DNA from: a virus
Taxonomy: Duplodnaviria > Caudoviricetes
Virus record (IMG/VR): IMGVR_UViG_3300037067_021710
DNA length: 64,000 bases
Strand: one strand, 5' to 3'
Shown here: in pieces, positions 4,592-17,835 of the stretch
Layout of the letters: each line of letters begins with the position of its first letter
How positions within the stretch are numbered: position 1 is the stretch's first letter
Made by a program: the position numbers and the translations under genes
Notes under the pieces: model-generated
Told to the model about the DNA's origin: nothing
The model's database searches: none
Seen by the model: only the letters and a program-made list of their open reading frames with translations

Positions 4592-7500
4592 TTATACCTT
4601 TTCTATATATTTTTTAAGTTCATCATTACGAGCTTGAATAGAGGCTAATTCTATTTTCCATTCATTTGGATGGTTTTTCCAATAAGCCCATGATTTTCCA
4701 AACCCCCATATTTCTCCTAATTTAGTATCTACAGTTAACTGAACTTTATTTTCTCCTTTATTTTTATAATATGGATAAGACATCCATCTTTCTGAAATTT
4801 CTATTGCCTCTTCAATTTCAGGTATATAGAATTCACTAACTATTGAATCATGTACATTATTAAGTATACGAGACTTCATATTTTTTTTCTTAAATTCTTT
4901 TCTAATATTCCCCATTGCTAAAATTGTAGTTTGCCCAGAAGTTCCCTGAATCGGAGCATTTATACTTGCATTAACTTGGTTACTTAAAATAGATTTCATT
5001 TCACCAAGATATTTTTTCATGAACATATTACCAAAATGTTCTTCTAACGTTTTACAAGTTCTATAAGTGAGTCTTGGAAGGCGTCGTTTTCTACCATACA
5101 TTGTAGTCACATAGCCATGAGTTCCACAAAACTTTTTGTATTCATCCATATATTGTTTATATTCTGGGTAAGCATCATAAAAAGCTTCTAATAATTGCTC
5201 AGCTACTTTTGAATCTATTTTTAATTGTTGGCCTAATCCGAAGCCAGTACTTCCATAAAAAGCAGAAAAATTAACTGTTTTTATTTCACCCCTAAAAGAT
5301 TCAAGAAGTTTTTCTTCTTGGCCTTCAATTTTTGTTTTATTATATAATCCTTCATAGGTTAAATCGCAGTCATCAAAAAAAGTATAAAGATCAAATTTAT
5401 CACCATAATGTTCATATAATTTTCTTTCACTCACAAAACGAGAACTCATCCAAGTAGCTATAGTAAATCTGTCTAGAACTTCTGCTACTTTGGCCCCAGT
5501 ATAACAATGCATATCTTTATCATTAAGAATTAAATCTTCAAGGGGGCCTTTTCCAGAAATTTGAGATCCAATTCTAATTTCCATAGCTTGATAATCTTGC
5601 TCAACTAATACAAAACCTTCAGATGGAAGAAAGATTTTTCTAAAACTAGGAGTTTTTGGCATATTTTGAAAATTAACCGTAGCATTTAACCCACCACCAC
5701 CAGACATTCTACCAGTTTTTGTTCCGTATAATTTATACCCACCATAAAGACGCCCTTTATAAATAGAGGCTACAAATCCTTTTTTACTAATCTTTATTGC
5801 TTCATCTTCGATTTCATCAGCATCTTCAATATTTAGAAATTCAGGAGTTTCTTCATCTTCTTTTTCACTAGTACTATTATTTAACTTTATACCAAATTGA
5901 GAAAGTTCTTTTGTAAGATGATTATACACGATAATTTTCTTAGCAAAATCAAGCCCAAAATCAGCATAACAATTCATTGCTTCTTTATTAACTTGAAAGG
6001 TTCCAGCTTTTGTTTTAAATTTTTGTTTTTCAGATTCAGGTAACTTCCTAAATTTAGAAAGGTCATTTAAAAAGTTAGCAACTACTTCACCTAATTGCAA
6101 ATTACTTTTTAAATTAAATTCTTTATTTGCTAAGGTATAAATTTCACTTTTAAGGCCTAAAGCTTGAATTTTTAATGACTCTGCATATTCATCTAATTCT
6201 TTTTTGTCAATTTGAGTTCCAGTCATTTCAATATCAGTAATCATTTCAACTGCAGGCATCATTCGTTGGTAAAAATCTTCTTTTACACAAGAATCTTCTA
6301 AATCTAATCTTCTCAAAAAATATGTATATAATTGATACGTTATTATAGCATCATAACAAGCATATTTAACTAAAATATCTGTAGGCATTTGAGAAAAATC
6401 AGCGACTTTATGCTCTTTTAATTTATAGTCTTTAACCCATTGTTTTTGCTCAGCTTCATACCCACCTTCAGTTGTATAAATCCAAGCCAAAGCTTTTAAA
6501 CTATTTGGACTATTTTCATTTAAAACATGAGCTGCTAACATTGTATCAAAAGTACATTTGGCTTCACTAATTCCTTTTGCTCTAAGAAATTTTAAGTCAA
6601 ATTGTGCATTTTGATAAATCCAAGTAATTGCTATATTTGAGAAAAAAGAATTTAAAAGTGCTTTATCAATTTTATCAAAAGGCAAAAAATATCCAGTTAT
6701 ACCATCATAAGATAAAGAAATATTATGCAAAGTATCTTCAAAATAATTAAATCCACTTGTTTCAGTGTCAATAGCAATTGCAGTAATAGATTTATTATTT
6801 ATAAGCTCTTGTATAAATTTATTTGGGTCATCAATATAGGTAAATTTTAATTCTTGTTTTCTAATTGGTCTTTCATTTGTAGCTTTTATTGCTCTTATAA
6901 GCTGGTCTTTGGACCATTTCCATTCGTAATTATCAAATCCCTGAGTTTTATAAAGAGGGGCAATCGGAAATACTTTACAATTAAATTCTTTTGAATATAA
7001 CCAGGAGTCATCAATCATCCAATCTTTTAAAGGATTGTTTTCGCCAAGTTCAGATTTATTAATAGGAACAAAAAAATGCCCACCAACATTTTTTTGTTTA
7101 ATAGCTTCAACAATTTTAAACATTGTATTTTCAGTAATAGAATATATTGCTCTACCAGTAGTAACAATAATTTTTGGAGCAATAATATCTATAATTTCTT
7201 TTACATTTTGTTTTTTACAAGAGACATAAGCCCCAGCAGCCTCATTAATTTTATAATCTTCACTTGCACAACCAACAGCATGAATAACACCATAAGTAAG
7301 TTTATGAACTCGAAATAAATTATCACAGTATTTATAAAAAGGCTTTGTCTTTAAATCCTTTTCTGGATGTTCTAAAAGAAGTAAAACATCAATTTTAGTT
7401 TTAGAGCAATAATTATAAATTTCTTCTGTTCCAATTAGTAACTTAACTAAATTAGCTTTTGAATTAAAAACTCTTAATTCACGAGCTCGACGCAAAGTAT

Positions 7501-7714
7501 CTTGGCAGGCTTTCGCTCCTAAAGGGCACCAACATAGCCCTTCTACATAATTTTCATGGGGTTGTTTTTTTGACTTTAATGGAGCTGGAAGTTTTTGTTG
7601 GTTGAAATTTAAAGGTTGAGAAAGTTGAGAAAGTTCTTGTACAGAACTTTTTTTAATTTTTAAAGAAGATTTTTTTACTTCTTCAGGTTTTTTTTGCTGA
7701 AATAATTGGGTCAT
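4592..7714 (-). CDS. family A DNA polymerase with N-terminal UDG-like domain and 3'-5' exonuclease
   Basis: ExoI IDTETSG, ExoII NAQFDL, ExoIII YACYD; Pol motifs DYQAMEIR, KTVNFSAFYG, VHDS; N-terminal HAVGC...APKIIVTTG UDG fold. Confidence 0.93.
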   Translation of the reverse strand: MTQLFQQKKPEEVKKSSLKIKKSSVQELSQLSQPLNFNQQKLPAPLKSKKQPHENYVEGLCWCPLGAKACQDTLRRARELRVFNSKANLVKLLIGTEEIYNYCSKTKIDVLLLLEHPEKDLKTKPFYKYCDNLFRVHKLTYGVIHAVGCASEDYKINEAAGAYVSCKKQNVKEIIDIIAPKIIVTTGRAIYSITENTMFKIVEAIKQKNVGGHFFVPINKSELGENNPLKDWMIDDSWLYSKEFNCKVFPIAPLYKTQGFDNYEWKWSKDQLIRAIKATNERPIRKQELKFTYIDDPNKFIQELINNKSITAIAIDTETSGFNYFEDTLHNISLSYDGITGYFLPFDKIDKALLNSFFSNIAITWIYQNAQFDLKFLRAKGISEAKCTFDTMLAAHVLNENSPNSLKALAWIYTTEGGYEAEQKQWVKDYKLKEHKVADFSQMPTDILVKYACYDAIITYQLYTYFLRRLDLEDSCVKEDFYQRMMPAVEMITDIEMTGTQIDKKELDEYAESLKIQALGLKSEIYTLANKEFNLKSNLQLGEVVANFLNDLSKFRKLPESEKQKFKTKAGTFQVNKEAMNCYADFGLDFAKKIIVYNHLTKELSQFGIKLNNSTSEKEDEETPEFLNIEDADEIEDEAIKISKKGFVASIYKGRLYGGYKLYGTKTGRMSGGGGLNATVNFQNMPKTPSFRKIFLPSEGFVLVEQDYQAMEIRIGSQISGKGPLEDLILNDKDMHCYTGAKVAEVLDRFTIATWMSSRFVSERKLYEHYGDKFDLYTFFDDCDLTYEGLYNKTKIEGQEEKLLESFRGEIKTVNFSAFYGSTGFGLGQQLKIDSKVAEQLLEAFYDAYPEYKQYMDEYKKFCGTHGYVTTMYGRKRRLPRLTYRTCKTLEEHFGNMFMKKYLGEMKSILSNQVNASINAPIQGTSGQTTILAMGNIRKEFKKKNMKSRILNNVHDSIVSEFYIPEIEEAIEISERWMSYPYYKNKGENKVQLTVDTKLGEIWGFGKSWAYWKNHPNEWKIELASIQARNDELKKYIEKV

Positions 7715-7994: not shown

Positions 7995-8498
7995 TTATAA
8001 ATTTTCAAAAACAGAATAATCTTCAACTACTAATTTACGAATTTTAACATCACATTCTTTAGCAAAAGTTAAACTTTCGGGGTCTGTTTTATCATAATCA
8101 TATAAATAAACAATTTCCTTTATTCCGCTAATAATCATTAATTTTAAACAATCTTGGCATGGAGATAAAGTTTGGTATACAATTGCTCCATCTAATGAAA
8201 TACCCTCTTTAGAAGCTCCTCCGAGCAGAGATTGCTCACTATGAATTTCATATTTTAATGAAAAATTATGGTGGGCTTCTCTCCATTCCTCATGAGTAGC
8301 AAAATGGTCTGGGCAAAGAAGTATATTATCATCGCAGTTAATGAATCCGGGAGGTGTCCCATTAATTCCTGTATATAAAATATGACCCTTTTTAACAGCA
8401 ACTGCTGCTACTTTAAAGCTCCTACAATGAGACTGTTTAGAAGCCAAAACAGCTATTTTCATAAACATTAAATCATACTGTTGTTTTTTTGTTTTCAT
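7995..8498 (-). CDS. dCMP deaminase
   Basis: TGINGTPPG, HSEQ and SPCQDC zinc motifs; likely start MKTKKQQ at 8498. Confidence 0.9.
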   Translation of the reverse strand: MKTKKQQYDLMFMKIAVLASKQSHCRSFKVAAVAVKKGHILYTGINGTPPGFINCDDNILLCPDHFATHEEWREAHHNFSLKYEIHSEQSLLGGASKEGISLDGAIVYQTLSPCQDCLKLMIISGIKEIVYLYDYDKTDPESLTFAKECDVKIRKLVVEDYSVFENL

Positions 8499-9195
8499 AC
8501 CACTCCACCATATTATGTAATAGTTGAAAATGTTTTTCATAAATGTGAGCTGTATTAGCTATATAAATTAAAGAGTCTGGTTTTAAATTTGGGTAATATT
8601 TTACTAATTCACAAAAAAGTTTATTATATACATGGCAGTGCCAAAATAAGTCTGAAAAAAAGCCGTATATAAGATCCATAGATCTTTGATTAACAATATA
8701 AATTAGCTTATCATCTCGTATAAAATGACTTGTAGCAAAAGTACACATAAATTCCTGCATTCCATCTCTACAATAATCGTACTGCATCGAAGGTCTATTA
8801 TAAATCATACAAGATCGACGTGACTCTTTATTTCGTTTTAATTCTTCTAAAGCATTAGAAAATTGATAATAATTCTCCTTTGAAAAAATACACCATCCAT
8901 AATTCGAATTTATATTTCCATGTTTATCAGCAATCTTTTTCCATAGGCCAGCTATATTCCCAATAATGTCTACACTTAATGATTGAGATTCATACCACTT
9001 TATTTCTTCTTCACAATATTTAATTGGAGTTTTTCTAACTCCAAAATCAAGAATGGGTTGTGTAGGGTCTAGTTCAATTTTAAAACCTAAAATTTCAACA
9101 GTTTTGCTTCCACTTTTATCAATAACAAAGTCTTCAGCAAGAAGTTTATTATTTAAGGCTTTAAATATTGGATATAATCTGTTTTCATTTGTCAT
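8473..9195 (-). CDS. dCMP hydroxymethylase (T4 gp42-like, thymidylate synthase fold)
   Basis: DFVIDKSGSKTVEI, INSNYGW, SRR, RPSMQYDY..DGM..FMCT and RSMD..YGF.SD closely recall T4 gp42, including the cytosine-specifying Asp; likely start MTNENR at 9195. Confidence 0.88.
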   Translation of the reverse strand: MTNENRLYPIFKALNNKLLAEDFVIDKSGSKTVEILGFKIELDPTQPILDFGVRKTPIKYCEEEIKWYESQSLSVDIIGNIAGLWKKIADKHGNINSNYGWCIFSKENYYQFSNALEELKRNKESRRSCMIYNRPSMQYDYCRDGMQEFMCTFATSHFIRDDKLIYIVNQRSMDLIYGFFSDLFWHCHVYNKLFCELVKYYPNLKPDSLIYIANTAHIYEKHFQLLHNMVEWYENKKTTV

Positions 9196-10387
9196 ATGAA
9201 AATAGCCCTTTAATGTCTTTAATAACATTATCAGAAATTGATTCAAATGAACTTTCTTTTTTCACAAATTTTTTCATTTTAATACTTGAATCACTCATAT
9301 TATCTAAGGCCAAATTTAATTTTTCACATATACTTTCTGGGGCTATAGGAATATCACAATAATATTCATATTTTGATCCACCCCTTTTTGCATATTCAAA
9401 AACTTTTGGCATTATAATAGTATTTTCACAATAAATAGATTCAAGATTTGCACACCCACCATATCTCTCTATATTATATAAATGAACACTAACCTCAGCT
9501 TTCCATAGCAATTCAAAATATTCTTGCCTATTTAATGGGTGGTCTTTATAAATTAAAACATTTTTTACATTTTCTTTTAACCATTCAGAAGAATATTTTC
9601 CAGATGGGTTTGTAAATATAACTTGAAAATCATTTCGCTTTTCTGCTAAAAGATTTATTGCTTGTATAAACTCTTCGTGATGAGTATAATTTATTCCTGA
9701 TAATCTATTTAAGAATAAAATCGTTGGTTTATCAAATTTCTCATCAGTTTTATATTTATCAGCTTCTTTAGTAGAAAAACCAAAATCCCATATGGTAGAT
9801 TTATTTTTTATAGCACTAGTATATTTACCATTAAATTTCTTTCTTGCATTTTGAATAAAAGCTTTTTTTGTAGATTTACAAGTAAAAACAGCTAAATCAC
9901 TGCATTCAAATCCATCGAACTGACGCCAATCATAAGAAATATTTTTGTCTATTTTTTCTTCCCCTATTTCAGGGGCATCTAGCCAATAGCAACAGGAAAT
10001 TAATTTTGTTTCTTTGCTCTTATACCATAAATAAGTTTTAATATTTCTTGAAAGTTCTGTTATATTATTCCAAACTACATCAATTTTTGGTAATGGCTTA
10101 AACATTGAGTCAAAATCACCAATATTAAAATGTTGGCGATTGAAAAAAGCATCCACAATAAAATTATAAGGTACCCAATGAATTCGTTCATTAGAGTCTA
10201 AAAGTTCATCATAAGATTTTATATCAGCAAAATCGTTTAATGGGGCAATTAATATATAAAAATGCCAATCAGTTTTTTCAAGAAGCTCTCTTAAAATTCC
10301 GCCCATCATATTAATATTACTATCAGAAGAAATCCATTTTCCTTCATTATTATAAATTGACTGCTGCAAAATATATAATATATTCAT
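9185..10387 (-). CDS. GT-B glycosyltransferase, candidate hmC/hm-dCMP glycosyltransferase
   Basis: MNILYI N-terminus, ILFLNRL, ERYGGCANLE (EX7-8E-like); overlaps the hydroxymethylase gene. Confidence 0.7.
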   Translation of the reverse strand: MNILYILQQSIYNNEGKWISSDSNINMMGGILRELLEKTDWHFYILIAPLNDFADIKSYDELLDSNERIHWVPYNFIVDAFFNRQHFNIGDFDSMFKPLPKIDVVWNNITELSRNIKTYLWYKSKETKLISCCYWLDAPEIGEEKIDKNISYDWRQFDGFECSDLAVFTCKSTKKAFIQNARKKFNGKYTSAIKNKSTIWDFGFSTKEADKYKTDEKFDKPTILFLNRLSGINYTHHEEFIQAINLLAEKRNDFQVIFTNPSGKYSSEWLKENVKNVLIYKDHPLNRQEYFELLWKAEVSVHLYNIERYGGCANLESIYCENTIIMPKVFEYAKRGGSKYEYYCDIPIAPESICEKLNLALDNMSDSSIKMKKFVKKESSFESISDNVIKDIKGLFSYDK

Positions 10388-10884
10388 TAAATAAACTCCA
10401 AAATAGTTGTAATTTGATTCTCTAAATTTTCATCTGTAGTATCTAAAAATAAAACTGGGTTTACTGACTCTTTAAAAAATTTTTGGTAAGCTTTTTGTAC
10501 ATTTTTAATATCTTTTTTTTGTAAATATTCATCAATATAATTTTTATATTCAGTTTTATAGCAATAAATATAATGTAAATTTACTTCTCTAAATTTTTTA
10601 TCTTGCATAAAAATAAAATCTAAGTCAGTAATTCTTCCAAGTCCTTGAGAATAAGCAAACTCACAGCAGTCTCCGCGATCTCGTATAACAGAATACCTTG
10701 TTTGCTTCAAGAAATTAAAAAAGAAAGAAGATTCATAATGTAAGGCTTCATAATAATCTCTATTAAAATTGTGCTCCATAGGGTTTTTGAAATATGGTAT
10801 TTCTAACCGTTGACTAAGTTCAGTTGCTATTGTAGTTTTTCCACTCTTATCTACTCCGCCAAATACTATGGTAATTTGTCTCAT
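10387..10884 (-). CDS. thymidylate-kinase-like dNMP kinase
   Basis: P-loop GVDKSGKTT, IRDR motif, FLDTT at the C-terminus. Confidence 0.8.
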   Translation of the reverse strand: MRQITIVFGGVDKSGKTTIATELSQRLEIPYFKNPMEHNFNRDYYEALHYESSFFFNFLKQTRYSVIRDRGDCCEFAYSQGLGRITDLDFIFMQDKKFREVNLHYIYCYKTEYKNYIDEYLQKKDIKNVQKAYQKFFKESVNPVLFLDTTDENLENQITTILEFI

Positions 10885-11441
10885 TTTATAGCTTCTCGCA
10901 ATTTTTTGGCTTGTTCATTATAGGCATCAACTCCAACATTATATGAGAAAGCTGCTGGGTGATAAAAAGTTTTGTACGGAATTTTTATATCACTACTTTT
11001 TATGAAAGCATTTGCTTCAGCCCCAAAACTTAATATAACTTTAGGCTTTATTATATCTAATTGAATATTTAGAAAATTTCTGCAATTTATAATTTCTTCT
11101 TTATTTAATTTTGAATTACTAGGTGAAGAGCATTTACAAATATTAACAAAAAACATCCTATTCATTATAAAGTCTTTTCCAAAAATATTTTCAACATATT
11201 TTCCTACATTACAAATTAACCAATTCTTTTTATATGTTTCTAAAAATTCTTGACTTTGAACTTCAGTATATGAATGTTCTAAGCCAGGATTTCTCATTAG
11301 CATAAAAATATCAAGTTTTTCTGGATCTCCATAGTAAATATGTGGGTATGGAATTGGAGTAACTTCCCTTAATCTAGTACATACATTGCAATTTAATATA
11401 GCCTTTTCGAGTCTTTGTAATTGTAATAATTTTGAAGACAT
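10881..11441 (-). CDS. uracil-DNA-glycosylase family 4-like (Fe-S) protein, divergent
   Basis: CNVC, RNPG (for EAPG), NICKC, NCRNFL, IKPKVILSFG, YHPA. Confidence 0.8.
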   Translation of the reverse strand: MSSKLLQLQRLEKAILNCNVCTRLREVTPIPYPHIYYGDPEKLDIFMLMRNPGLEHSYTEVQSQEFLETYKKNWLICNVGKYVENIFGKDFIMNRMFFVNICKCSSPSNSKLNKEEIINCRNFLNIQLDIIKPKVILSFGAEANAFIKSSDIKIPYKTFYHPAAFSYNVGVDAYNEQAKKLREAIK

Positions 11442-12469
11442 TATACTTTTCCCAGTTTAATCATCTCTCTAACCCAAGGAATTACTTCATCACGCAATAT
11501 ATTTTCTAAAAGTGTTTTAGACTCAAAGTTTAATATTTCTTTAGCTTTAATAGTGTCAGGAATTCTACACTGTACATCATACTTAAAAGGCTTGTCTGAA
11601 ATATAAGAAAATTCCTTTTCAGGCTGAATTAAATTCCAAATTATTTTGGCTAATTCTAGTACAGTAAGCCCTCTATTAGTACTTAAATTAAAATCCTCGT
11701 TCAAAGCTTTTTCAGAAAAAATCGCTTTTTCTATTCCATCAGCAAGATCATTAGCTGGAGTATAGTATCGTATTTGATTTCCATCACCTAAAATCCTAAG
11801 CGGGTTTTGCCCCTTAATTATTTTTTGAATAAAATCAACTACTACATGGCTCATTGCTAATTCTATAGTGCCACTCATTACTTTCTCATCTACTTTGGCT
11901 TTTTGTTCTCCCAAACCCACAGCATTAAAGGGGCGTATAATAGTGTAAGGCAAACCATATTGCTCATAATACCCTTGACAAAAATACTCAACAGATAATT
12001 TTTGAAACCCATATGTAGAAAGAGGAGGAGAAATTTTTCTTTCATCTCCTTCTTTTGAAGGAAATTTAGTGGCAGATTCATAAACCATGCTAGAAGATAT
12101 TGCTAGTATTTTTTTTAAGAAGCCTTTTTTATAAGCATAAATTGCTGTTTTAAAAAAAGTAGAACAAATTTCTTCATTTTCTGAAATTAAGTCTCCAGCT
12201 AACTTATGAAAAAAACTTATACCACCGATCAAAGCGGCTCCATTAACCATAATTTCAGGCTTATAAAACCATACAAGAAATTTCATAAGAAATTTATTTT
12301 TAGCATCCATATAAAAATGATGATAATTTTTATGGGTATGATAACTTTTTTTTATTTTCCCATATTTCCAATTATTATCAATTCCAATTACTATATGGCC
12401 TTTATCAAGGAGATTTTGAATAGCATATCCAGCAATAAAACCTTTATCACCTGTCCAAAATATTCTCAT
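11441..12469 (-). CDS. NAD-dependent nucleotide-sugar epimerase/decarboxylase (extended SDR)
   Basis: TGDKGFIA, SSSMVYE, YGFQK (YxxxK), RPFNAVG, GDGNQIR. Confidence 0.88.
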   Translation of the reverse strand: MRIFWTGDKGFIAGYAIQNLLDKGHIVIGIDNNWKYGKIKKSYHTHKNYHHFYMDAKNKFLMKFLVWFYKPEIMVNGAALIGGISFFHKLAGDLISENEEICSTFFKTAIYAYKKGFLKKILAISSSMVYESATKFPSKEGDERKISPPLSTYGFQKLSVEYFCQGYYEQYGLPYTIIRPFNAVGLGEQKAKVDEKVMSGTIELAMSHVVVDFIQKIIKGQNPLRILGDGNQIRYYTPANDLADGIEKAIFSEKALNEDFNLSTNRGLTVLELAKIIWNLIQPEKEFSYISDKPFKYDVQCRIPDTIKAKEILNFESKTLLENILRDEVIPWVREMIKLGKV

Positions 12470-12476
12470 AATACCT

Positions 12477-13712
12477 CTAAAAATAATTTAAAAGTTTTTT
12501 ATTAAGTATTCCCCAACCATCAATTACTATTTTATTTTTTAATATAGATAAATCAATGGTATAATATGATTTATGATTTATTGCAATAATAAGTATATCA
12601 CTATTTTTAATAACTTCTTGTAGTTCTTTATTATAAAATTTATAATTATTATAAAAATCATCTACAGGGCCATGAGGCAAATTCGGCTCATTAATATATA
12701 TTTCATTTGGAATATATCGATTTATATACCTTATTAATTTTGGGGTTAAATTATCTCGAGTATCATCAGTATCAGCCTTAAAAGTATACCCAAGAATTCC
12801 AATATTTTTATTTTTAATTTTATCTTTAAGAAGGTCAACATAAAATTTTGGCCCAAATTCATTAACTTTATAAGAACTCATTAGTAAATCTGATTGTGAA
12901 AAATTTTCATTTATCATCCCCCAATCTTTTACCAAACAAGTTCCCTTGCTAAATCCAGGTTTTAATAGTCCTTTATTTCGTGGATAATCTTTATTCATTA
13001 TTTTTAATAATGTATATATATCAACTCCAAAAGAATCTGCAATATAAGAAAAATAATTTGGAATTGACATATTTATATATCTAAAAATATTTGTAAATAA
13101 TTTAGCTAATTCAGCTTCTTCAGGAGTACATTGGATAATGTCAACTCCAAAAACTGAAAATATATTTTTTGCTCGTAAATACGAAGCCTCATCATAGGTT
13201 CCAATAATTTGAGGAAGTGTACTTAATTCTTCATAAGCCTTTCCTTCAGCTAATCGTTCAGGGCACATAGCCAAATAAAAATCTTTTCCACAAACCATTT
13301 TTGTTTTATTTTCAATATACTCTTTAATAAATTTTGTGGTGTTAGGAGCTACTGTAGATCTAAGAACTATGAGAATATCTTTTAATATGGCTTTCTGAAC
13401 TAAATTATCAATCACTCCTTTTACTTGAGATAAATCAGTCTCAATATGCTGCATTAATGGGGTTCCAACAGTAATAATAAAAGCCTTACTTTCTGGATAC
13501 CATAAAAGAAGAGAAGCATCTAATATTTGTATTTTTGACTTTTCAAGAAGTTTATCATACCCGGGTTCTAAAAAAGGCATTTTTTTATTATTAACAGAAT
13601 TAATTAGGTCTCTATTTAAATCAATAGCCTCAACCGCTAAACCTTTTTCTTCTAATGATAAAGCTAAAGGAAGGCCCACTCTACCACATCCAATAATAGT
13701 TACATCAAACAT
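12477..13712 (-). CDS. UDP-N-acetylhexosamine/UDP-glucose 6-dehydrogenase (WecC-like)
   Basis: IGCGRVGLP, VGTP, RSTVAP, CPERLAEG, AELAKLFTN, GTCLVKD (catalytic Cys), GYTFKADTDDTR. Confidence 0.9.
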   Translation of the reverse strand: MFDVTIIGCGRVGLPLALSLEEKGLAVEAIDLNRDLINSVNNKKMPFLEPGYDKLLEKSKIQILDASLLLWYPESKAFIITVGTPLMQHIETDLSQVKGVIDNLVQKAILKDILIVLRSTVAPNTTKFIKEYIENKTKMVCGKDFYLAMCPERLAEGKAYEELSTLPQIIGTYDEASYLRAKNIFSVFGVDIIQCTPEEAELAKLFTNIFRYINMSIPNYFSYIADSFGVDIYTLLKIMNKDYPRNKGLLKPGFSKGTCLVKDWGMINENFSQSDLLMSSYKVNEFGPKFYVDLLKDKIKNKNIGILGYTFKADTDDTRDNLTPKLIRYINRYIPNEIYINEPNLPHGPVDDFYNNYKFYNKELQEVIKNSDILIIAINHKSYYTIDLSILKNKIVIDGWGILNKKLLNYF

Positions 13713-13720
13713 AATCTCTC

Positions 13721-14236
13721 CTATTTATTATCAGTAGACCCAAATCCGCCATCTTTTCGTTCTGAATTTTTATGAAGTTCTAAAATTTGAGTATACTCAA
13801 CTTCTTCAGGTATAGCATATGAGACTGGAATTAAAATTGCTTGAATAATTTTTTCATTTTCTTCAAGAGCAACATTTGTATTCCCAGTGTTTACAATAGA
13901 AATATGAATTTGCCCAGAATAATCTTCATCGATAATTTCTGCAAGTCTATCAAGCCCTTTTTTAGTTGCAATTCCAGATTTATTATGCACAGCTAACATA
14001 TATCCAGGGCTAAATTTTATATGAATTCCTGAAGGAATTAAAATTCGCTGCTGAGGTTGTAATGAAATATACTTATATTCATTTTTATTATCAACAATAA
14101 AATTATGTCCTGAGTTTTTTTCTGCTAATTGTTTTACAAACTCTTCAGAAAACTCAGGAATATAAAAATCTATTCCAGCAGACCTTGATGTTCCTCTTGA
14201 TGGAGATTTAACTTTTAGGGTTTTAGCAAACTTCAT
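13721..14236 (-). CDS. dut: trimeric dUTPase-family pyrophosphatase
   Basis: SAGIDF, NKSG, IIDEDYSG, KIIQ, RKDGGFGST. Confidence 0.88.
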   Translation of the reverse strand: MKFAKTLKVKSPSRGTSRSAGIDFYIPEFSEEFVKQLAEKNSGHNFIVDNKNEYKYISLQPQQRILIPSGIHIKFSPGYMLAVHNKSGIATKKGLDRLAEIIDEDYSGQIHISIVNTGNTNVALEENEKIIQAILIPVSYAIPEEVEYTQILELHKNSERKDGGFGSTDNK

Positions 14237-14547: not shown

Positions 14548-16476
14548 TTAACATTTAACTTCAGGATAACGTTTTCTTTCAGTATATTCCTTTCTCCGTT
14601 CTTCAGACCACGAGCTTACTGGAACTAAAAAGCCAACAATTCTGGTATATTTTTCTATTATTTTTTTACCACAAATAATACAATGCTTTGTATTATCAAT
14701 TGTTAAATGGCCATCTTCACATTTTTGAAAAAAGTAATTTATAGCAAAATACTGAACACCAGACTTAACTACATACTTAATAATTTTTTTCATTAACGCA
14801 GTAGTAGGAATTTTTTCACCAAGATTTACATGCATAATAGTACCACCCGAAAAATACTTTTCAAAGGTAGCCTGCAATTCTATGCGATTAATAATATCTG
14901 TGTCACAAGTCAATGGAATAAACTGATTTCCATAAAGCTCAAAAGTATCTTGCTTATACAGTATAGAGTCAACTTTGGCTAATTTTCCAGCAGTCTGCTC
15001 AGCAGGAATTTGTTCTATATTACAACGATAGCCATAGGTTTTAATTTTTTCTTCAGAAATACTTTGCAAAAAAGTTAATATGTCTATTGCAAATTGTTTT
15101 CCTCCATTTTCATCTGAAGCCATATCATAACCCATAAAATATACAGCTTCATACAGCCCAGTAATACCTAATGTAGAATACTGATTTTCAAGTTTCATAA
15201 AACCATAAGTATATAAAGGCATTTGATCTTGAGTAATTTTATCTTGTATTAGTTGACGACGGCAATGATTTATTCTATAAGCATCTCTTGCATGCTCATT
15301 AAGTAGTATAAAAAATTTGTCTTTGTCTTTTTTAGCTAATAAGCCAATTCTCGCGAGGTTTACTGTAGTTACTCCAAAAGATCCAACTTTTATTGAACTG
15401 CCACCAATAAGATTAAAATTTTCTTCTTTTGTAGCTTTAATAATATCTTCCACATTCGATAATAATCTGCAACATGAGCTTAATGCAGTTAAATTCTCTG
15501 CGCTAAAAATATTAAGATGACCAAAATCTAAATTTATTTTACTTATAAAATCTAAAAAGTCAATATCTTCAATGTTTCCTTCACTATCTTTTTTAAATTG
15601 AGCCGTCAATACAGGAAAAGTAAAAATACTTTCTTTATTAAACTCATTAAAAAACTCAAGAAACTTCTTTTGAATAACCATTGCAAAGTCAGCATCTATG
15701 CATTCACCGTTAATTATATAAGTTTTGCATAACTCCTTTAAAAATATAGAGTCAAAAATAGTGATATTTGTAAATGGGCTCTGAACATCTCGGATCGGCT
15801 GATTAATTGTATAAATAAATTTTTGAAATTCTTGTCGTAAAAATTTGTCAAATTGTTTTGGAGCATCTTTATATACTGATAAATGATAATTTTTATCATT
15901 TAGATCTTTTTTAAGAAGAGCACTATAAATAACTAAAACATTCGGTATTGCAGTAGCCCCCATCATTTGACGCGAAGCAAACATAACCAATTGTTCTACA
16001 TGTCGTAAAAAAGTATCAGCGTGTTTAGCTGGAGATGAGGGTTTATTTGTTATAAATGGAAGACCTTGAGTTACTAAATCTATAGTGTCAAAAGCAAAGC
16101 AGTAACTCAAAAAGAAATTTGAAAAATCTTGAACATTTAAATCTTTATTTAGTTCTTTTTCACAAAGTTTATTTGCTTCAGAAGTTCCCCACATTTTCTT
16201 TGCAGTTTTCCAAAGTAAATATAAAGAATTTAATTTGTCTAACCCTTTATGAACTTCTGTTTTAAAAGTTGCAATATTTTTTATTTGAACATTAGCATTT
16301 GCATCAACAGATACATCAGCTACATTCTTCTTTAAAAAGTACCTTTTAGCAAAATTTGTTACATCAAAAGAGTCATCACTTATTCCCTCAAGTTCAAAAA
16401 CTACTCGAGGGTATTTATCCTTCATGTCAAGCATAAAATGTTCAAACTGATCATCGTACGACTGCTTAATCCACAT
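14548..16476 (-). CDS. nrdD: anaerobic ribonucleoside-triphosphate reductase
   Basis: FTFPV, SCCRL, EQIPAE, C-terminal zinc cysteines and glycyl-radical YTRIVGFL. Confidence 0.93.
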   Translation of the reverse strand: MWIKQSYDDQFEHFMLDMKDKYPRVVFELEGISDDSFDVTNFAKRYFLKKNVADVSVDANANVQIKNIATFKTEVHKGLDKLNSLYLLWKTAKKMWGTSEANKLCEKELNKDLNVQDFSNFFLSYCFAFDTIDLVTQGLPFITNKPSSPAKHADTFLRHVEQLVMFASRQMMGATAIPNVLVIYSALLKKDLNDKNYHLSVYKDAPKQFDKFLRQEFQKFIYTINQPIRDVQSPFTNITIFDSIFLKELCKTYIINGECIDADFAMVIQKKFLEFFNEFNKESIFTFPVLTAQFKKDSEGNIEDIDFLDFISKINLDFGHLNIFSAENLTALSSCCRLLSNVEDIIKATKEENFNLIGGSSIKVGSFGVTTVNLARIGLLAKKDKDKFFILLNEHARDAYRINHCRRQLIQDKITQDQMPLYTYGFMKLENQYSTLGITGLYEAVYFMGYDMASDENGGKQFAIDILTFLQSISEEKIKTYGYRCNIEQIPAEQTAGKLAKVDSILYKQDTFELYGNQFIPLTCDTDIINRIELQATFEKYFSGGTIMHVNLGEKIPTTALMKKIIKYVVKSGVQYFAINYFFQKCEDGHLTIDNTKHCIICGKKIIEKYTRIVGFLVPVSSWSEERRKEYTERKRYPEVKC

Positions 16477-16498
16477 CTAAAATTTTACCTCTTTAAAT

Positions 16499-16723
16499 TT
16501 ATATTTCTAATTCTTTCTCACTTTTTGTAAATTTATATTCTAATTCTAATTCTTTATCATCTTTCAATTCTTCAATAACCGTTAAAAGAAGCTTAATATT
16601 TGGTTGTATAATTTCACTAAATTCATCCACCCCTAAATGTTGAAAATTATCATGATATTGCTTTGTTAACTCTATTAATATTTCTTTTAATGTAGTGTGA
16701 TTTTCATGATGATAAAACTTCAT
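16499..16723 (-). CDS. hypothetical protein
   Basis: 74-aa ORF with AGGAG SD between nrdG and nrdD. Confidence 0.55.
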   Translation of the reverse strand: MKFYHHENHTTLKEILIELTKQYHDNFQHLGVDEFSEIIQPNIKLLLTVIEELKDDKELELEYKFTKSEKELEI

Positions 16724-16735
16724 TTAAAATCTCCT

Positions 16736-17254
16736 TTAATTTTTAAAATAATATATCCCATTGCTACTTAATTTTCTATAATTATAATCATATAACTCTT
16801 GATTGCTACTTGCAAATTGTATATATCCATCATTTTTTATAGAGTGTTGTTGTAAACTCTTTTCAAACTTTCCACATTTTATAAATTGAAAACCTATAAT
16901 TTTATTTTCTTTAACATACTCAATTTTATACCCAGTATAAATACAAATATCAAAAGAGTTTCCAAATTGTTTAAGAAAGCTTTTTGTAAACTCTAAATTT
17001 CTAGGAGCTAAACTATCACCACCAGAAAATACTACAGCTTTCGTATCATATTCTTGAGTTTTAATAATAAGAATATTATACAAAGTTTGTCCATCCATAT
17101 AGGGGTTTTTTTCATATTCTTGAAGAGTAGAATTTTGGCACTCTACGCAATTATGCTCACAACCTTTAAAATTAACAAGAATTGCAATACTTGACGGATC
17201 TGGATAGTCAATTAAAGTAAAAATTATTGGATAGTGAATACTAACTTGGCTCAT
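16736..17254 (-). CDS. nrdG: anaerobic RNR activating radical-SAM protein
   Basis: GCEHNCVECQN (CxxxCxxC), FSGGD, IYTGY, SSNQ. Confidence 0.9.
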   Translation of the reverse strand: MSQVSIHYPIIFTLIDYPDPSSIAILVNFKGCEHNCVECQNSTLQEYEKNPYMDGQTLYNILIIKTQEYDTKAVVFSGGDSLAPRNLEFTKSFLKQFGNSFDICIYTGYKIEYVKENKIIGFQFIKCGKFEKSLQQHSIKNDGYIQFASSNQELYDYNYRKLSSNGIYYFKN

Positions 17255-17835
17255 TGAAGGTAGGCATACAAAGCATCAAATTGGTTTTTAAGGTCTTGTA
17301 TTGAGCCACTGTTATTAATAACAAAGTCAAAATATGAATCTGAAACTAAGTCAAGATCAATTTCAGAAATATCAGAATCTACTTCTTTCGAGTCTCTAAC
17401 TATTCGTATAGTATAAACGTCTCTATCAGAAAATCGCTTTATTAATTCTGATAGTTCATATAAAAAACGACAATCAGTAACTACTATATTTGAATTAGAA
17501 AGACAAGAATTTTCTTTTATTTCATTCTCTAAAAGATTTACCCAGTAATATTGCCCCATAAGTATTTTTATACTTTGACCGAACCATTGCATCAACGATC
17601 GTATAGTAATTGGTTGGTGAGTAGTAGTATTAATTCCAAGTTCTCTAGACTTATTTGAATAAAAATCTTCTATAGAAATTTCAAAACTAGCAATGTTCTT
17701 AGAAAATATATATAATTGTTCTTTTAAAGAATCAGCCAACGCCATTTTATAAAAATTTTTTTCTTTAAAAAACTCAGCAAAAGTGTCTTTACCTGAATAT
17801 TTTTTACCAGAAATAAGTACTAATTTTTTTCTCAT
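17251..17835 (-). CDS. deoxynucleoside monophosphate kinase (T4 gp1-like)
   Basis: SGKKYSGKDT, LADSLKE, RSLMQWFG, VTDCRF.YE, ISE. Confidence 0.85.
   Translation of the reverse strand: MRKKLVLISGKKYSGKDTFAEFFKEKNFYKMALADSLKEQLYIFSKNIASFEISIEDFYSNKSRELGINTTTHQPITIRSLMQWFGQSIKILMGQYYWVNLLENEIKENSCLSNSNIVVTDCRFLYELSELIKRFSDRDVYTIRIVRDSKEVDSDISEIDLDLVSDSYFDFVINNSGSIQDLKNQFDALYAYLQ

What the first reader, a model, noticed from the sequence alone, without database searches (positions are those of the whole stretch)
7995..14236. Candidate new DNA hypermodification pathway: hmC carrying a phage-made uronic-acid or pentose sugar
Seen: one tightly packed operon with abutting or overlapping genes, in the order dUTPase > WecC-type UDP-sugar 6-dehydrogenase > extended-SDR enzyme > UDG-fold protein > dNMP kinase > GT-B > dCMP hydroxymethylase > dCMP deaminase, immediately upstream of the polymerase. 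The TS-fold enzyme keeps T4 gp42 motifs and the Asp that selects dCMP. Known: T-even phages glucosylate hmC from host UDP-glucose. A 6-dehydrogenase followed by an SDR decarboxylase is the route to UDP-xylose, and to UDP-XylNAc from UDP-GlcNAc in Bacillus. The CPER motif fits the N-acetylhexosamine dehydrogenase subgroup. Inference: the phage makes its own donor (UDP-HexNAcA/GlcA, or a decarboxylated XylNAc/xylose) and installs it on hmC. I know of no described base of this type from a gp42 route. It would be expected to block restriction and CRISPR nucleases, including glucosyl-hmC-specific ones.
Basis: partly seen in the sequence, partly recalled or inferred. Interest (0 to 1): 0.92.

Follow-up and report, generated by a model that had tools for sequence, protein, structure and literature searches.

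The report
Phage hydroxymethylcytosine sugar-acid DNA modification operon
An uncultured large phage from landfill and groundwater carries a conserved gene set that should replace cytosine with hydroxymethylcytosine and decorate it with a home-made acidic sugar, through a glycosyltransferase family with no name yet; this is a gene-based prediction of a new variant of a known anti-restriction strategy.

Summary
In detail: eight tightly packed minus-strand genes (7995-14236) have the stated order and end one small ORF before a family-A DNA polymerase.

- **Hydroxymethylase:** the TS-fold enzyme is T4 gp42-type (E 9e-53). It keeps Asp at ThyA-177 and ThyA-169 and Glu at ThyA-143, so it is not the RB69-type 5-hydroxy-dCMP synthase.
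- **Transferase:** the 400-aa protein has no Pfam or PDB sequence match. It folds confidently as a GT-B closest to retaining GT4 enzymes (MshA, PglA, BshA) and founds a family of hundreds of metagenomic clusters.
- **Synteny:** in 12 of 12 non-redundant viral loci with GT at 34% identity or more, the GT sits with a sugar dehydrogenase, the same SDR, a thymidylate-kinase-like kinase and a dCMP-specific TS homolog. Distant GT relatives keep the TS but lack dehydrogenase and SDR.
- **Sugar:** the SDR has invariant SSSM where decarboxylases and dehydratases have TSE/TDE, and is closest to a 4-epimerase. A uronic acid, probably N-acetylated and C4-epimerised, is favoured over a pentose.
- **Novelty:** lower than claimed. 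Hexuronic-acid-5hmC was already made with MT/TET-route phage enzymes (Pyle et al. 2023), and this scan noted related cassettes on other DNA.

No chemistry exists. Verdict: new variant of a known kind.

The parts
13721..14236 (-). Trimeric dUTPase-family NTP pyrophosphatase (171 aa). It makes dUMP; dCTPase activity is possible but unknown.
   Evidence: PF00692 at 1.4e-16. Best PDB match is dUTPase 8y1q at 5e-18, with motif 3 IDEDYSG and motif 5 GGFGST kept. A dUTPase of this fold or of the all-alpha fold recurs in related loci.
12477..13712 (-). NDP-sugar 6-dehydrogenase of the WecC/Cap5O/WbpA-like clade (411 aa).
   Evidence: Three UDPG_MGDP_dh domains. TIGR03026 scores 267 bits, above its cut-off. 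Best PDB matches are 4r16 and Cap5O, both UDP-ManNAc dehydrogenases. The CPER motif and catalytic Cys align with E. coli WecC, whereas Ugd has SPEF. Cellular homologs at 47-50% identity sit in WbpA/B/D/E-like or WecB-adjacent clusters.
11441..12469 (-). Extended SDR acting on the nucleotide sugar (342 aa), 4-epimerase-like. It lacks the decarboxylase/dehydratase Glu.
   Evidence: PF01370. The motif SSSM(V/I)(Y/F)E is invariant, with the Y..K pair kept. hUXS and ArnA have STSEVYG and RffG has STDEVYG at that place. In the AF2 model (pLDDT 89), the top Foldseek hit is TmGalE at 2e-28, with decarboxylases and GME near 1e-23.
10881..11441 (-). Family-4-like UDG-fold protein (186 aa). Probably a uracil/hmU repair or replication accessory; its role in the module is unresolved.
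   Evidence: PF03167 at 34.7 bits, above its cut-off, plus weak family-4 models. CxxC and CxC cysteines and the HP(A/S) motif B are kept. Motif A reads RNPG instead of GE(A/G)PG. It is present in 8 of 12 close loci and beside the distant GTs in L027 and L028.
10387..10884 (-). Thymidylate-kinase-like P-loop nucleotide kinase (165 aa), translationally coupled to the GT.
   Evidence: Weak dNK/TMK Pfam matches. The family profile hits dGK, YorR and TMK structures. hhalign to RB69 ORF045c gives probability 86%, E 5e-6. It lies beside the GT in 12 of 12 close loci and in L032 and L033.
9185..10387 (-). Glycosyltransferase of an unnamed GT-B family (400 aa); the predicted hmC glycosyltransferase.
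   Evidence: No Pfam, NCBIfam, PHROG or PDB sequence hit. AF2 gives pLDDT 94.3 and pTM 0.92. Top Foldseek hits are MshA 3c4q (1.4e-12), PglA, GlgM, SPS and BshA. The family has 112 clusters at 90% identity. The profile search found 868 representatives at 50% identity with E<=1e-3 and 132 with E<=1e-30.
8473..9195 (-). T4 gp42-type dCMP hydroxymethylase (240 aa from the ATG; the ORF extends to a TTG at 9246).
   Evidence: T4 gp42 structures match at E 9e-53, about 41% identity. Identity to the RB69 gp48 5hoC synthase is only 23%. Cys146, Glu at 143, Asp at 169 and Asp at 177 (ThyA numbering) are all present.
7995..8540 (-). dCMP deaminase, the analogue of T4 cd.
   Evidence: PF00383 at 5e-19 and phrog_174 at 9e-44.
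17251..17835 (-). T4 gp1-like dNMP kinase (194 aa), outside the stated coordinates. The likely hm-dCMP kinase.
   Evidence: PF21448 DNMK precomputed. Matches PDB 1dek, the T4 dNMP kinase, at 5e-6.
4592..7714 (-). Family-A DNA polymerase with 3'-5' exonuclease, immediately downstream of the operon.
   Evidence: PF01612 and PF00476 precomputed on the identical contig.

Best explanation
The operon is a cytosine-replacement and glycosylation system built on the T-even plan, but with different parts.

Inferred from family membership:
- The dUTPase-family enzyme and the dCMP deaminase shape the pyrimidine pools.
- The gp42-type enzyme converts dCMP to 5-hydroxymethyl-dCMP.
- The gp1-like kinase at 17251-17835, and possibly the in-cluster thymidylate-kinase-like kinase, take it to the diphosphate.
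- The phage PolA then builds hmC into DNA.

Inferred for the sugar:
- In parallel, the WecC/WbpA-like dehydrogenase oxidises C6 of a host UDP-hexose, most likely UDP-GlcNAc.
- The SDR tailors the product without decarboxylation, most likely by C4 epimerisation.
- The result would be a UDP-(N-acetyl)hexuronic acid such as UDP-GalNAcA or UDP-GalA.

Inferred for the transfer:
- The new GT-B, whose fold relatives are retaining enzymes, transfers this acidic sugar to the hydroxymethyl group of hmC.
- The product would be a negatively charged hypermodified base that should block restriction and CRISPR nucleases.

Shown here: gene content, active-site signatures, fold, and conserved linkage. Not shown: every chemical step and the identity of the sugar.
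For: - **TS homolog.** It matches T4 gp42 at E 9e-53. It keeps Cys146, an acidic 143, Asp169 and Asp177. The RB69 5hoC synthase has Asn169, which is the diagnostic of Lee et al. 2026, PMC13326640. All 15 GT-linked TS homologs examined show the same signature.
- **GT.** The fold is GT-B at pLDDT 94, and the top structural hits are UDP-sugar-using retaining GT4 enzymes.
- **Linkage.** Dehydrogenase, SDR, TMK-like kinase, GT and TS lie together in 12 of 12 non-redundant loci with GT identity of 34-68%. These loci come from phages with different replicases, PolA or PolIII. GT relatives at 27-32% identity keep the TS but lack dehydrogenase and SDR. The sugar genes therefore track the GT subfamily.
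- **Dehydrogenase.** The catalytic Cys is present, the motif is CPER as in WecC, and the nearest cellular homologs are in HexNAc-uronate clusters.
- **SDR.** The S/Y/K triad is kept. An invariant Met replaces the Glu of hUXS, ArnA and RffG. The closest structure is a 4-epimerase.
- **Contrast case.** In Maribacter phage Molly_1, the SDR of an analogous DH-SDR-GT-TS cluster does carry STSEVYG.
- **Precedent.** HexA-5hmC was made by other phage GT/epimerase pairs. T4 itself has gene 42 next to beta-gt.
Against: - No chemical or expression data exist for this uncultured phage.
- No equivalog model for any dehydrogenase or SDR specificity is reached, so the sugar identity is a guess within a class.
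- No dCTPase of the T4 gp56 type was found. However, the held record is only about 46% of the genome.
- The SDR keeps the Arg that UXS and ArnA also use, and its second-best structural neighbour is a decarboxylase.
- The same genome holds other glycosyltransferases and sugar genes (scan notes) that could use the donor.
- The acceptor of the GT, whether DNA or mononucleotide, is unknown.
Confidence: 0.55

Rival explanations
1. The sugar is decarboxylated. The SDR acts as a UDP-uronate decarboxylase, and the GT installs a pentose (xylose, or 2-acetamido-xylose) on hmC, as the first reader also proposed.
For: Dehydrogenase followed by an SDR is the classical route to UDP-xylose. hUXS matches the SDR at 4e-14. 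A decarboxylase (8vr2) is the second-best structural neighbour. The Arg of the UXS/ArnA 'DxxxRxP' motif is kept. Pentose-modified cytosines exist in phages (PMC12838424).
Against: The Glu next to the catalytic Ser/Thr, present in hUXS, ArnA and 8vr2, is an invariant Met in all 31 family members aligned. The best sequence and structure match is a 4-epimerase, by 4-10 orders of magnitude in E-value. An analogous phage cluster that does carry a TSE-type SDR exists (Molly_1), so this family looks like a different choice.
Confidence: 0.12
2. The GT glycosylates the mononucleotide (hm-dCMP) rather than DNA. The adjacent thymidylate-kinase-like kinase is the dedicated kinase for the bulky glycosylated dNMP, so the sugar enters DNA pre-replicatively. 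The sugar chemistry is as in the best explanation.
For: The genome has two dNMP kinases, and the TMK-like one is coupled to the GT by a 1-nt overlap. The kinase-GT pair is the most constant unit: 12 of 12 close loci, plus L032 and L033. The same kinase-GT1-TS order is seen in RB69, DLP3 and RL38J1. For those phages the authors state that the site of the first glycosylation is unresolved, and the isolated GTs were inactive on 5hoC DNA.
Against: Every characterised hmC glycosyltransferase acts on DNA (established knowledge for T4 alpha- and beta-GT; reconstitutions). A second kinase could simply secure dTMP or hm-dCMP phosphorylation. GT relatives in L006, L027 and L028 showed no detectable copy of this kinase.
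Confidence: 0.2
3. The dehydrogenase and SDR feed a different glycan, on the virion or the host surface, and merely sit in the nucleotide-metabolism arm. The GT would use a host donor such as UDP-glucose or UDP-GlcNAc.
For: The window holds two more GT4 genes (21864-24396). Scan notes report a large sugar operon elsewhere in the genome. The SDR has about 58% identical cellular homologs, which work with a polyprenyl-phosphate GT2 in surface-glycan clusters.
Against: Dehydrogenase and SDR are contiguous with the GT and TS in 12 of 12 divergent loci. They are absent exactly where the GT belongs to a different subfamily. No flippase, polymerase or lipid-carrier GT lies in the operon.
Confidence: 0.1

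Closest known systems
T-even phage glucosyl-hmC system (T4 gp42 dCMP hydroxymethylase, gp1 dNMP kinase, cd dCMP deaminase, gp56 dCTPase, alpha-/beta-glucosyltransferase)
   Same: It has a gp42-type enzyme with the same active-site signature, a gp1-like kinase, a dCMP deaminase, and a GT gene next to the hydroxymethylase gene, as in T4.
   Different: The GT is an unrelated GT4-like family; no T4 GT appears among the top Foldseek hits. The phage encodes its own donor-making dehydrogenase and SDR. The replicase is PolA, not PolB. A trimeric dUTPase stands in place of a gp56-type dCTPase. A TMK-like kinase and a UDG-fold gene are added.
Arabinosyl-5-hydroxycytosine clusters of RB69, DLP3 and HY126, and the hexosyl-5hoC cluster of RL38J1 (Lee et al. 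2026, PMC13326640)
   Same: The core order is the same: TMK-like nucleotide kinase, then a first GT-B whose best structural match is MshA, then a TS homolog. Phage-encoded synthesis of the sugar donor lies beside it.
   Different: Those TS homologs carry Asn at ThyA-169 and make 5-hydroxy-dCMP. This one keeps Asp169 and is only 23% identical to RB69 gp48. The donor route there is Ru5P to UDP-arabinofuranose, not dehydrogenase plus SDR. The GTs show no sequence relation.
Metavirome MT/5mYOX 'subclass II' clusters (GT plus sugar epimerase) that produced HexA-5hmC in E. coli (Pyle et al. 2023, bioRxiv 10.1101/2023.12.21.572611)
   Same: A GT depends on a partner sugar epimerase, and there is a hexuronic-acid adduct on 5hmC (433 amu).
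   Different: There, hmC is made post-replicatively by a methyltransferase plus a TET-like dioxygenase, and the uronic acid comes from the host pool. Here the route is pre-replicative (gp42-type), and the phage brings its own 6-dehydrogenase. That survey notes ThyS-linked GT-B genes but reports no dehydrogenase module.
Maribacter phage Molly_1 gp100-gp103 (cultured; annotated but not studied for DNA modification)
   Same: The gene order DH, SDR, GT, TS homolog sits inside the replication genes.
   Different: Its SDR is UXS-type (STSEVYG) and only 24% identical. Its GT is annotated as beta-glucosyltransferase-like and is unrelated to this family. Its TS homolog has Asn at ThyA-177, which points to a uracil rather than a cytosine route.
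Bacillus phage SP-15 (dihydroxypentyluracil bearing glucose and phosphoglucuronolactone)
   Same: It is the one phage DNA with a chemically established uronic-acid-derived substituent. It also encodes a UDP-glucose dehydrogenase, 24% identical.
   Different: The base is a uracil derivative, the uronate is attached through a phosphodiester, and the gene set differs.

Membership tests
T4 gp42-type dCMP hydroxymethylase (5hm-dCMP synthase) | Thymidylate-synthase fold with the catalytic Cys (ThyA C146) | tested here: met
   PF00303 at 1.5e-17. The Cys aligns in FMCT.
T4 gp42-type dCMP hydroxymethylase (5hm-dCMP synthase) | Asp at ThyA N177 (selects dCMP) and an acidic residue at ThyA L143 (admits water) | tested here: met
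   Asp at 177 and Glu at 143, in alignments with E. coli ThyA and T4 gp42.
T4 gp42-type dCMP hydroxymethylase (5hm-dCMP synthase) | Closest relative is gp42 rather than another TS-family branch | tested here: met
   T4 gp42 matches at E 9e-53, against 1e-7 for true TS and 3e-4 for MilA. Identity is 40% to T4 gp42 against 23% to RB69 gp48.
T4 gp42-type dCMP hydroxymethylase (5hm-dCMP synthase) | Product is 5-hydroxymethyl-dCMP | not testable with these tools
   Needs an enzyme assay or an in vivo LC-MS assay.
5-hydroxy-dCMP synthase (RB69 gp48 / DLP3 gp80 type) | Asn at ThyA D169 (diagnostic of Lee et al. 2026) | tested here: not met
   The window has RSMD, with Asp, whereas RB69 has RSQN.
GT-B glycosyltransferase, GT4-like retaining type | Two Rossmann-like domains superposable on GT4 enzymes | tested here: met
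   AF2 pLDDT 94.3. Foldseek probability is 1.00 to MshA, PglA, BshA and SPS, with TM-scores of 0.6-0.73.
GT-B glycosyltransferase, GT4-like retaining type | Sequence membership (PF00534 / PF13692) and the canonical EX7E motif | tested here: inconclusive
   The window protein has no Pfam hit, though a few homologs carry a precomputed PF00534. The conserved ER(Y/M)GGCxxRE gives Glu-x8-Glu, not x7.
GT-B glycosyltransferase, GT4-like retaining type | Acceptor is hmC in DNA | not testable with these tools
   This is inferred only from linkage to dCMP-type TS homologs.
T4 alpha-/beta-glucosyltransferase families | Sequence or closest-fold relation to T4 AGT/BGT | tested here: not met
   tblastn against 50,697 phage records gave no match. 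No T4 GT is among the listed top Foldseek hits.
NDP-sugar 6-dehydrogenase (UDPG_MGDP_dh) | N-terminal, central and C-terminal domains, the family-level model, and the catalytic Cys | tested here: met
   All three Pfam domains are present. TIGR03026 scores 267 bits, above its 189.8 cut-off. The Cys in GTCLVKD aligns with that of WecC and Ugd.
NDP-sugar 6-dehydrogenase (UDPG_MGDP_dh) | Substrate-specific equivalog (WecC, Ugd/TuaD/AglM, TviB) | tested here: not met
   All score far below their cut-offs. The best is the archaeal UDP-ManNAc dehydrogenase, at 179 bits against 750.
UDP-glucuronate decarboxylase (UXS / ArnA C-terminal type) | Ser/Thr-Tyr-Lys triad plus the Glu directly after it (T-S-E) | tested here: not met
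   The triad is present, but the motif is SSSM, with invariant Met.
NDP-hexose 4-epimerase (GalE-like extended SDR) | Ser-Tyr-Lys triad with no extra acid/base residue, and closest structures being 4-epimerases | tested here: met
   S126, Y153 and K157 are invariant. TmGalE is the best match by sequence (1.4e-24) and by fold (2e-28).
NDP-hexose 4-epimerase (GalE-like extended SDR) | Equivalog-level membership (TIGR01179 galE, TviC) | tested here: not met
   galE scores 58 bits against a cut-off of 262. TviC is not listed for the window protein.
Family-4 uracil-DNA glycosylase | UDG fold, motif A GE(A/G)PG, motif B HP(S/A), and Fe-S cysteines | tested here: inconclusive
   PF03167 is above its cut-off. 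Motif B and four Cys are present. Motif A reads RNPG in the window, although one relative has GENPG.

The most novel reading that the evidence does not exclude
The constant unit of this and of the RB69/DLP3/RL38J1 systems is a thymidylate-kinase-like kinase coupled to the first GT. The GT may therefore glycosylate hm-dCMP itself. The kinase would then phosphorylate the sugar-bearing nucleotide, and the phage polymerase would incorporate an acidic glycosylated dCTP analogue directly. That would be pre-replicative DNA glycosylation, which has never been demonstrated.
Probability: 0.2. Interest if true: 0.85.

Novelty: new variant of a known kind. Interest (0 to 1): 0.62.

Why it matters
If the prediction holds, it adds an acidic, probably N-acetylated sugar to the list of natural cytosine hypermodifications made through the gp42 route.

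- It defines a large GT-B family with no Pfam model that is dedicated to TS-homolog-linked DNA modification. The profile search found 868 representatives at 50% identity.
- It shows that phages swap donor-synthesis cassettes around a constant kinase-GT-TS core.
- A negatively charged base would behave differently from glucosyl-hmC towards type IV restriction enzymes, CRISPR nucleases, packaging and nanopore sequencing.
- The enzymes would be useful for labelling 5hmC.
- The kinase-GT linkage bears directly on a question the RB69/DLP3 authors left open: where does the first sugar go on?

Tried and rejected
- tblastn of the GT against 50,697 phage records found no match.
- hhalign of the GT family against the two halves of the RB69 arabinosyltransferase 1, and against the Molly_1 GT, found no relation.
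- Complex prediction of the GT with the TMK-like kinase gave no verdict (score 0.00, controls not run). It is not used as evidence either way.
- The look-up of sequencing runs listed no RNA holder. The only holders are a landfill run and a groundwater run, each of which may be the source assembly. It says nothing about expression.
- The sigma-70 promoter scan found no more sites than shuffled controls. The terminator scan found 8 sites against 4.1 +/- 2.0 in the shuffles, and none lies at a gene boundary of the operon.
- A search of the held record for MazG or dimeric-dUTPase families, to find a gp56-like dCTPase, found nothing. The record is only about 46% complete.
- RB69-type 5hoC synthase identity for the TS homolog is rejected on Asp169 and 23% identity.
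- A true thymidylate synthase or a dUMP hydroxymethylase is rejected on Asp177 and Glu143.
- NCBIfam equivalogs were tried to fix the sugar; none is reached.
- The SDRs next to the closest cellular dehydrogenase homologs are a different family, at 23-24% identity. They do not inform the function of this SDR.

Full report
**Anatomy.** The region 7995-14236 holds eight minus-strand ORFs with 1-26 nt overlaps or 7-8 nt gaps. Family searches give the following:
- a trimeric dUTPase-family protein;
- a three-domain NDP-sugar 6-dehydrogenase (TIGR03026, 267 bits, above its cut-off);
- an extended SDR;
- a UDG-superfamily protein;
- a small P-loop kinase with weak dNK/TMK matches;
- a 400-aa protein with no hit in Pfam, NCBIfam or PHROGs;
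- a thymidylate-synthase-fold protein;
- a dCMP deaminase.

A 75-aa ORF and a 1040-aa family-A polymerase follow. Upstream lie NrdD, NrdG and a T4 gp1-like dNMP kinase. The held record is a 76-kb linear IMG/VR fragment, about 46% complete. The identical GT occurs on a 165-kb contig. The stretch is held by a landfill run and a groundwater run. GC content is about 28%.

**The pyrimidine enzyme.** phmmer against the PDB puts T4 gp42 first at E 9e-53, far ahead of true thymidylate synthases (1e-7) and MilA (3e-4). This matters because Lee et al. 2026 (PMC13326640) showed that the 'gp42 homologs' of RB69, DLP3, Thanatos and RL38J1 make 5-hydroxy-dCMP instead. Those enzymes are marked by Asn at E. 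coli ThyA position 169.
- I aligned E. coli ThyA, T4 gp42 and RB69 gp48 with the window protein and 14 GT-linked homologs.
- The window protein has Cys146, Glu at 143, Asp at 169 (RSMD) and Asp at 177. RB69 has Asn at 169.
- All 15 GT-linked proteins have Asp169 and Asp177.
- The window protein is about 40% identical to T4 gp42 and 23% to RB69 gp48.

By every sequence criterion now available, this is a dCMP hydroxymethylase.

**The transferase.** No sequence method names the 400-aa protein, and it has no match in 50,697 phage records. It has 112 homolog clusters at 90% identity, almost all metagenomic, on contigs of up to 732 kb.
- A profile search of 1.84 billion representatives found 868 at E<=1e-3 and 132 at E<=1e-30.
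- An AlphaFold2 model from 43 sequences has pLDDT 94.3 and pTM 0.92.
- Foldseek places it among retaining GT-B enzymes: MshA 3c4q, PglA, GlgM, sucrose-phosphate synthase and BshA.

**Conserved linkage.** I fetched loci through exact-protein look-ups and an IMG/VR scan with the GT alignment. I then scanned them with the window proteins and Pfam.
- In 12 of 12 non-redundant loci with GT identity of 34-68% and enough flanking DNA, the GT sits with four partners.
- The partners are an SDR of the same family (268-480 bits), a UDPG_MGDP_dh-family gene, the TMK-like kinase and a TS homolog. In L022 and L024 the dehydrogenase gene is a short 246-266 aa form.
- The UDG-fold gene is present in 8 of the 12.
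- These phages differ in their replicase, which is PolA or PolIII alpha.
- GT relatives at 27-32% identity (L006, L007, L027, L028) still lie beside a TS homolog, often with a dUTPase and deaminase, but lack dehydrogenase and SDR.
- A GT at 138 bits (L033) shows kinase-GT-TS-dUTPase-PolIII.

The sugar genes track one GT subfamily, which argues that they make its donor.

**Which sugar.**
- *Dehydrogenase.* It aligns with E. coli WecC through the CPER motif and the catalytic Cys, whereas Ugd has SPEF. Its best structures are UDP-ManNAc dehydrogenases.
- *Cellular homologs.* Homologs at 47-50% identity lie in a Halocella cluster with WbpB/D/E-like genes, and beside a WecB-type 2-epimerase in another genome. 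This points to an N-acetylhexosamine substrate, but no equivalog cut-off is reached.
- *SDR motifs.* It keeps Ser, Tyr and Lys, but has an invariant SSSM. hUXS and ArnA have STSE and RffG has STDE at that place.
- *SDR neighbours.* Its best sequence and fold match is the Thermotoga UDP-hexose 4-epimerase (1.4e-24; 2e-28). Decarboxylases, GME and Pal trail by several orders of magnitude in E-value.
- *Origin of the SDR.* Thousands of cellular proteins are about 58% identical to it. In the cellular loci looked at (L010-L013), from two of these proteins, it again follows a dehydrogenase and precedes a polyprenyl-phosphate GT2.
- *Contrast case.* The cultured Maribacter phage Molly_1 has an analogous DH-SDR-GT-TS cluster whose SDR is STSEVYG. 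Phages evidently use both SDR types.

I therefore favour a non-decarboxylated, probably C4-epimerised UDP-(N-acetyl)hexuronic acid. The exact sugar remains open.

**Other parts.**
- *Kinase.* The in-cluster kinase has a TMK-type P-loop and DR motif. It matches dGK, YorR and TMK structures as a family profile. It matches RB69 ORF045c at hhalign probability 86%.
- *Kinase-GT-TS order.* The same order occurs in RB69, DLP3 and RL38J1. For those phages the authors could not say whether the first sugar is added to the mononucleotide or to DNA. This keeps alive the reading that GT and kinase work at the nucleotide level. A complex prediction gave no verdict.
- *dUTPase-family protein.* It keeps the canonical motifs. 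In related loci the corresponding gene can belong to the unrelated all-alpha dUTPase family. This suggests that an NTP pyrophosphatase is a required function of the module.
- *UDG-fold protein.* It keeps the Fe-S cysteines and motif B but has an altered motif A. Its role is unresolved.

**Comparison with the known.**
- The plan is that of T4, where gene 42 is also adjacent to beta-gt. The core order is that of the 5hoC arabinosylation clusters.
- A hexuronic-acid adduct of 5hmC has already been produced with MT/TET-route phage enzymes using host donors.
- What is new here is the combination: a gp42-type route, a GT-B family with no model, and a phage-encoded dehydrogenase/SDR donor cassette.
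- Full-text searches found no description of such a module.
- Notes of this scan report related sugar-acid hmC cassettes on other DNA, including what appears to be a relative on a 178-kb sediment phage. This is therefore not the scan's first sighting.

I class it as a new variant of a known kind, entirely predicted from sequence.

Noticed in passing
window 21864-23069 and 23101-24396 (minus strand): Two further GT4-type glycosyltransferase genes (PF00534; weak 'GT4-conflict' match) lie in the replication arm next to an SNF2 helicase gene. They could extend a DNA glycan, as DLP3 gp76/77 do, or glycosylate virion proteins. Their only phage database relatives are weak hits in Streptomyces phages.
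   Followed up: partly
L029 (Maribacter phage Molly_1, NC_062751) 9001-13760: A cultured flavobacterial phage has an analogous gene run: UDP-sugar dehydrogenase, UXS-type SDR (STSEVYG), 'beta glucosyl transferase', TS homolog. That TS homolog has Asn at ThyA-177 and Asp at 143, which suggests a pentosylated hydroxymethyluracil. The isolation paper does not discuss DNA modification.
   Followed up: partly
L022 9362-10000: One relative carries an FkbM-type methyltransferase between the SDR and the GT, which suggests an O-methylated version of the sugar. L022 and L024 also have short (246-266 aa) dehydrogenase forms that lack the C-terminal domain.
   Followed up: partly
L003 12164-14467 (732-kb JGI contig): The module also occurs on a 732-kb contig. 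Its PolIII alpha there carries an N-terminal UDG-like domain and an intein signal, and a stand-alone UDG-fold gene lies next to the SDR.
   Followed up: no
L010 / L012 7800-17100 (cellular contigs up to 1.03 Mb): The phage SDR is about 58% identical to a very abundant cellular protein; one source names a Candidatus Vogelbacteria MAG. That protein lies in a run of dehydrogenase, SDR, unknown 217-228 aa protein, polyprenyl-phosphate GT2 and four large proteins without Pfam hits. This is a possible origin of the SDR and a weak hint at the host lineage in groundwater.
   Followed up: partly
L032 6075-8713: A more distant member of the GT family (272 bits) is flanked by a radical SAM/SPASM gene and a TMK/dNK-like kinase, with SDR genes nearby. 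No TS homolog was seen within 7 kb, so this may be a different modification chemistry.
   Followed up: no
window 14548-17835: Anaerobic ribonucleotide reductase NrdD, its activase NrdG and a T4 gp1-like dNMP kinase precede the operon on the same strand. The whole arm reads as one nucleotide-supply and replication block, and fits an anoxic habitat.
   Followed up: partly
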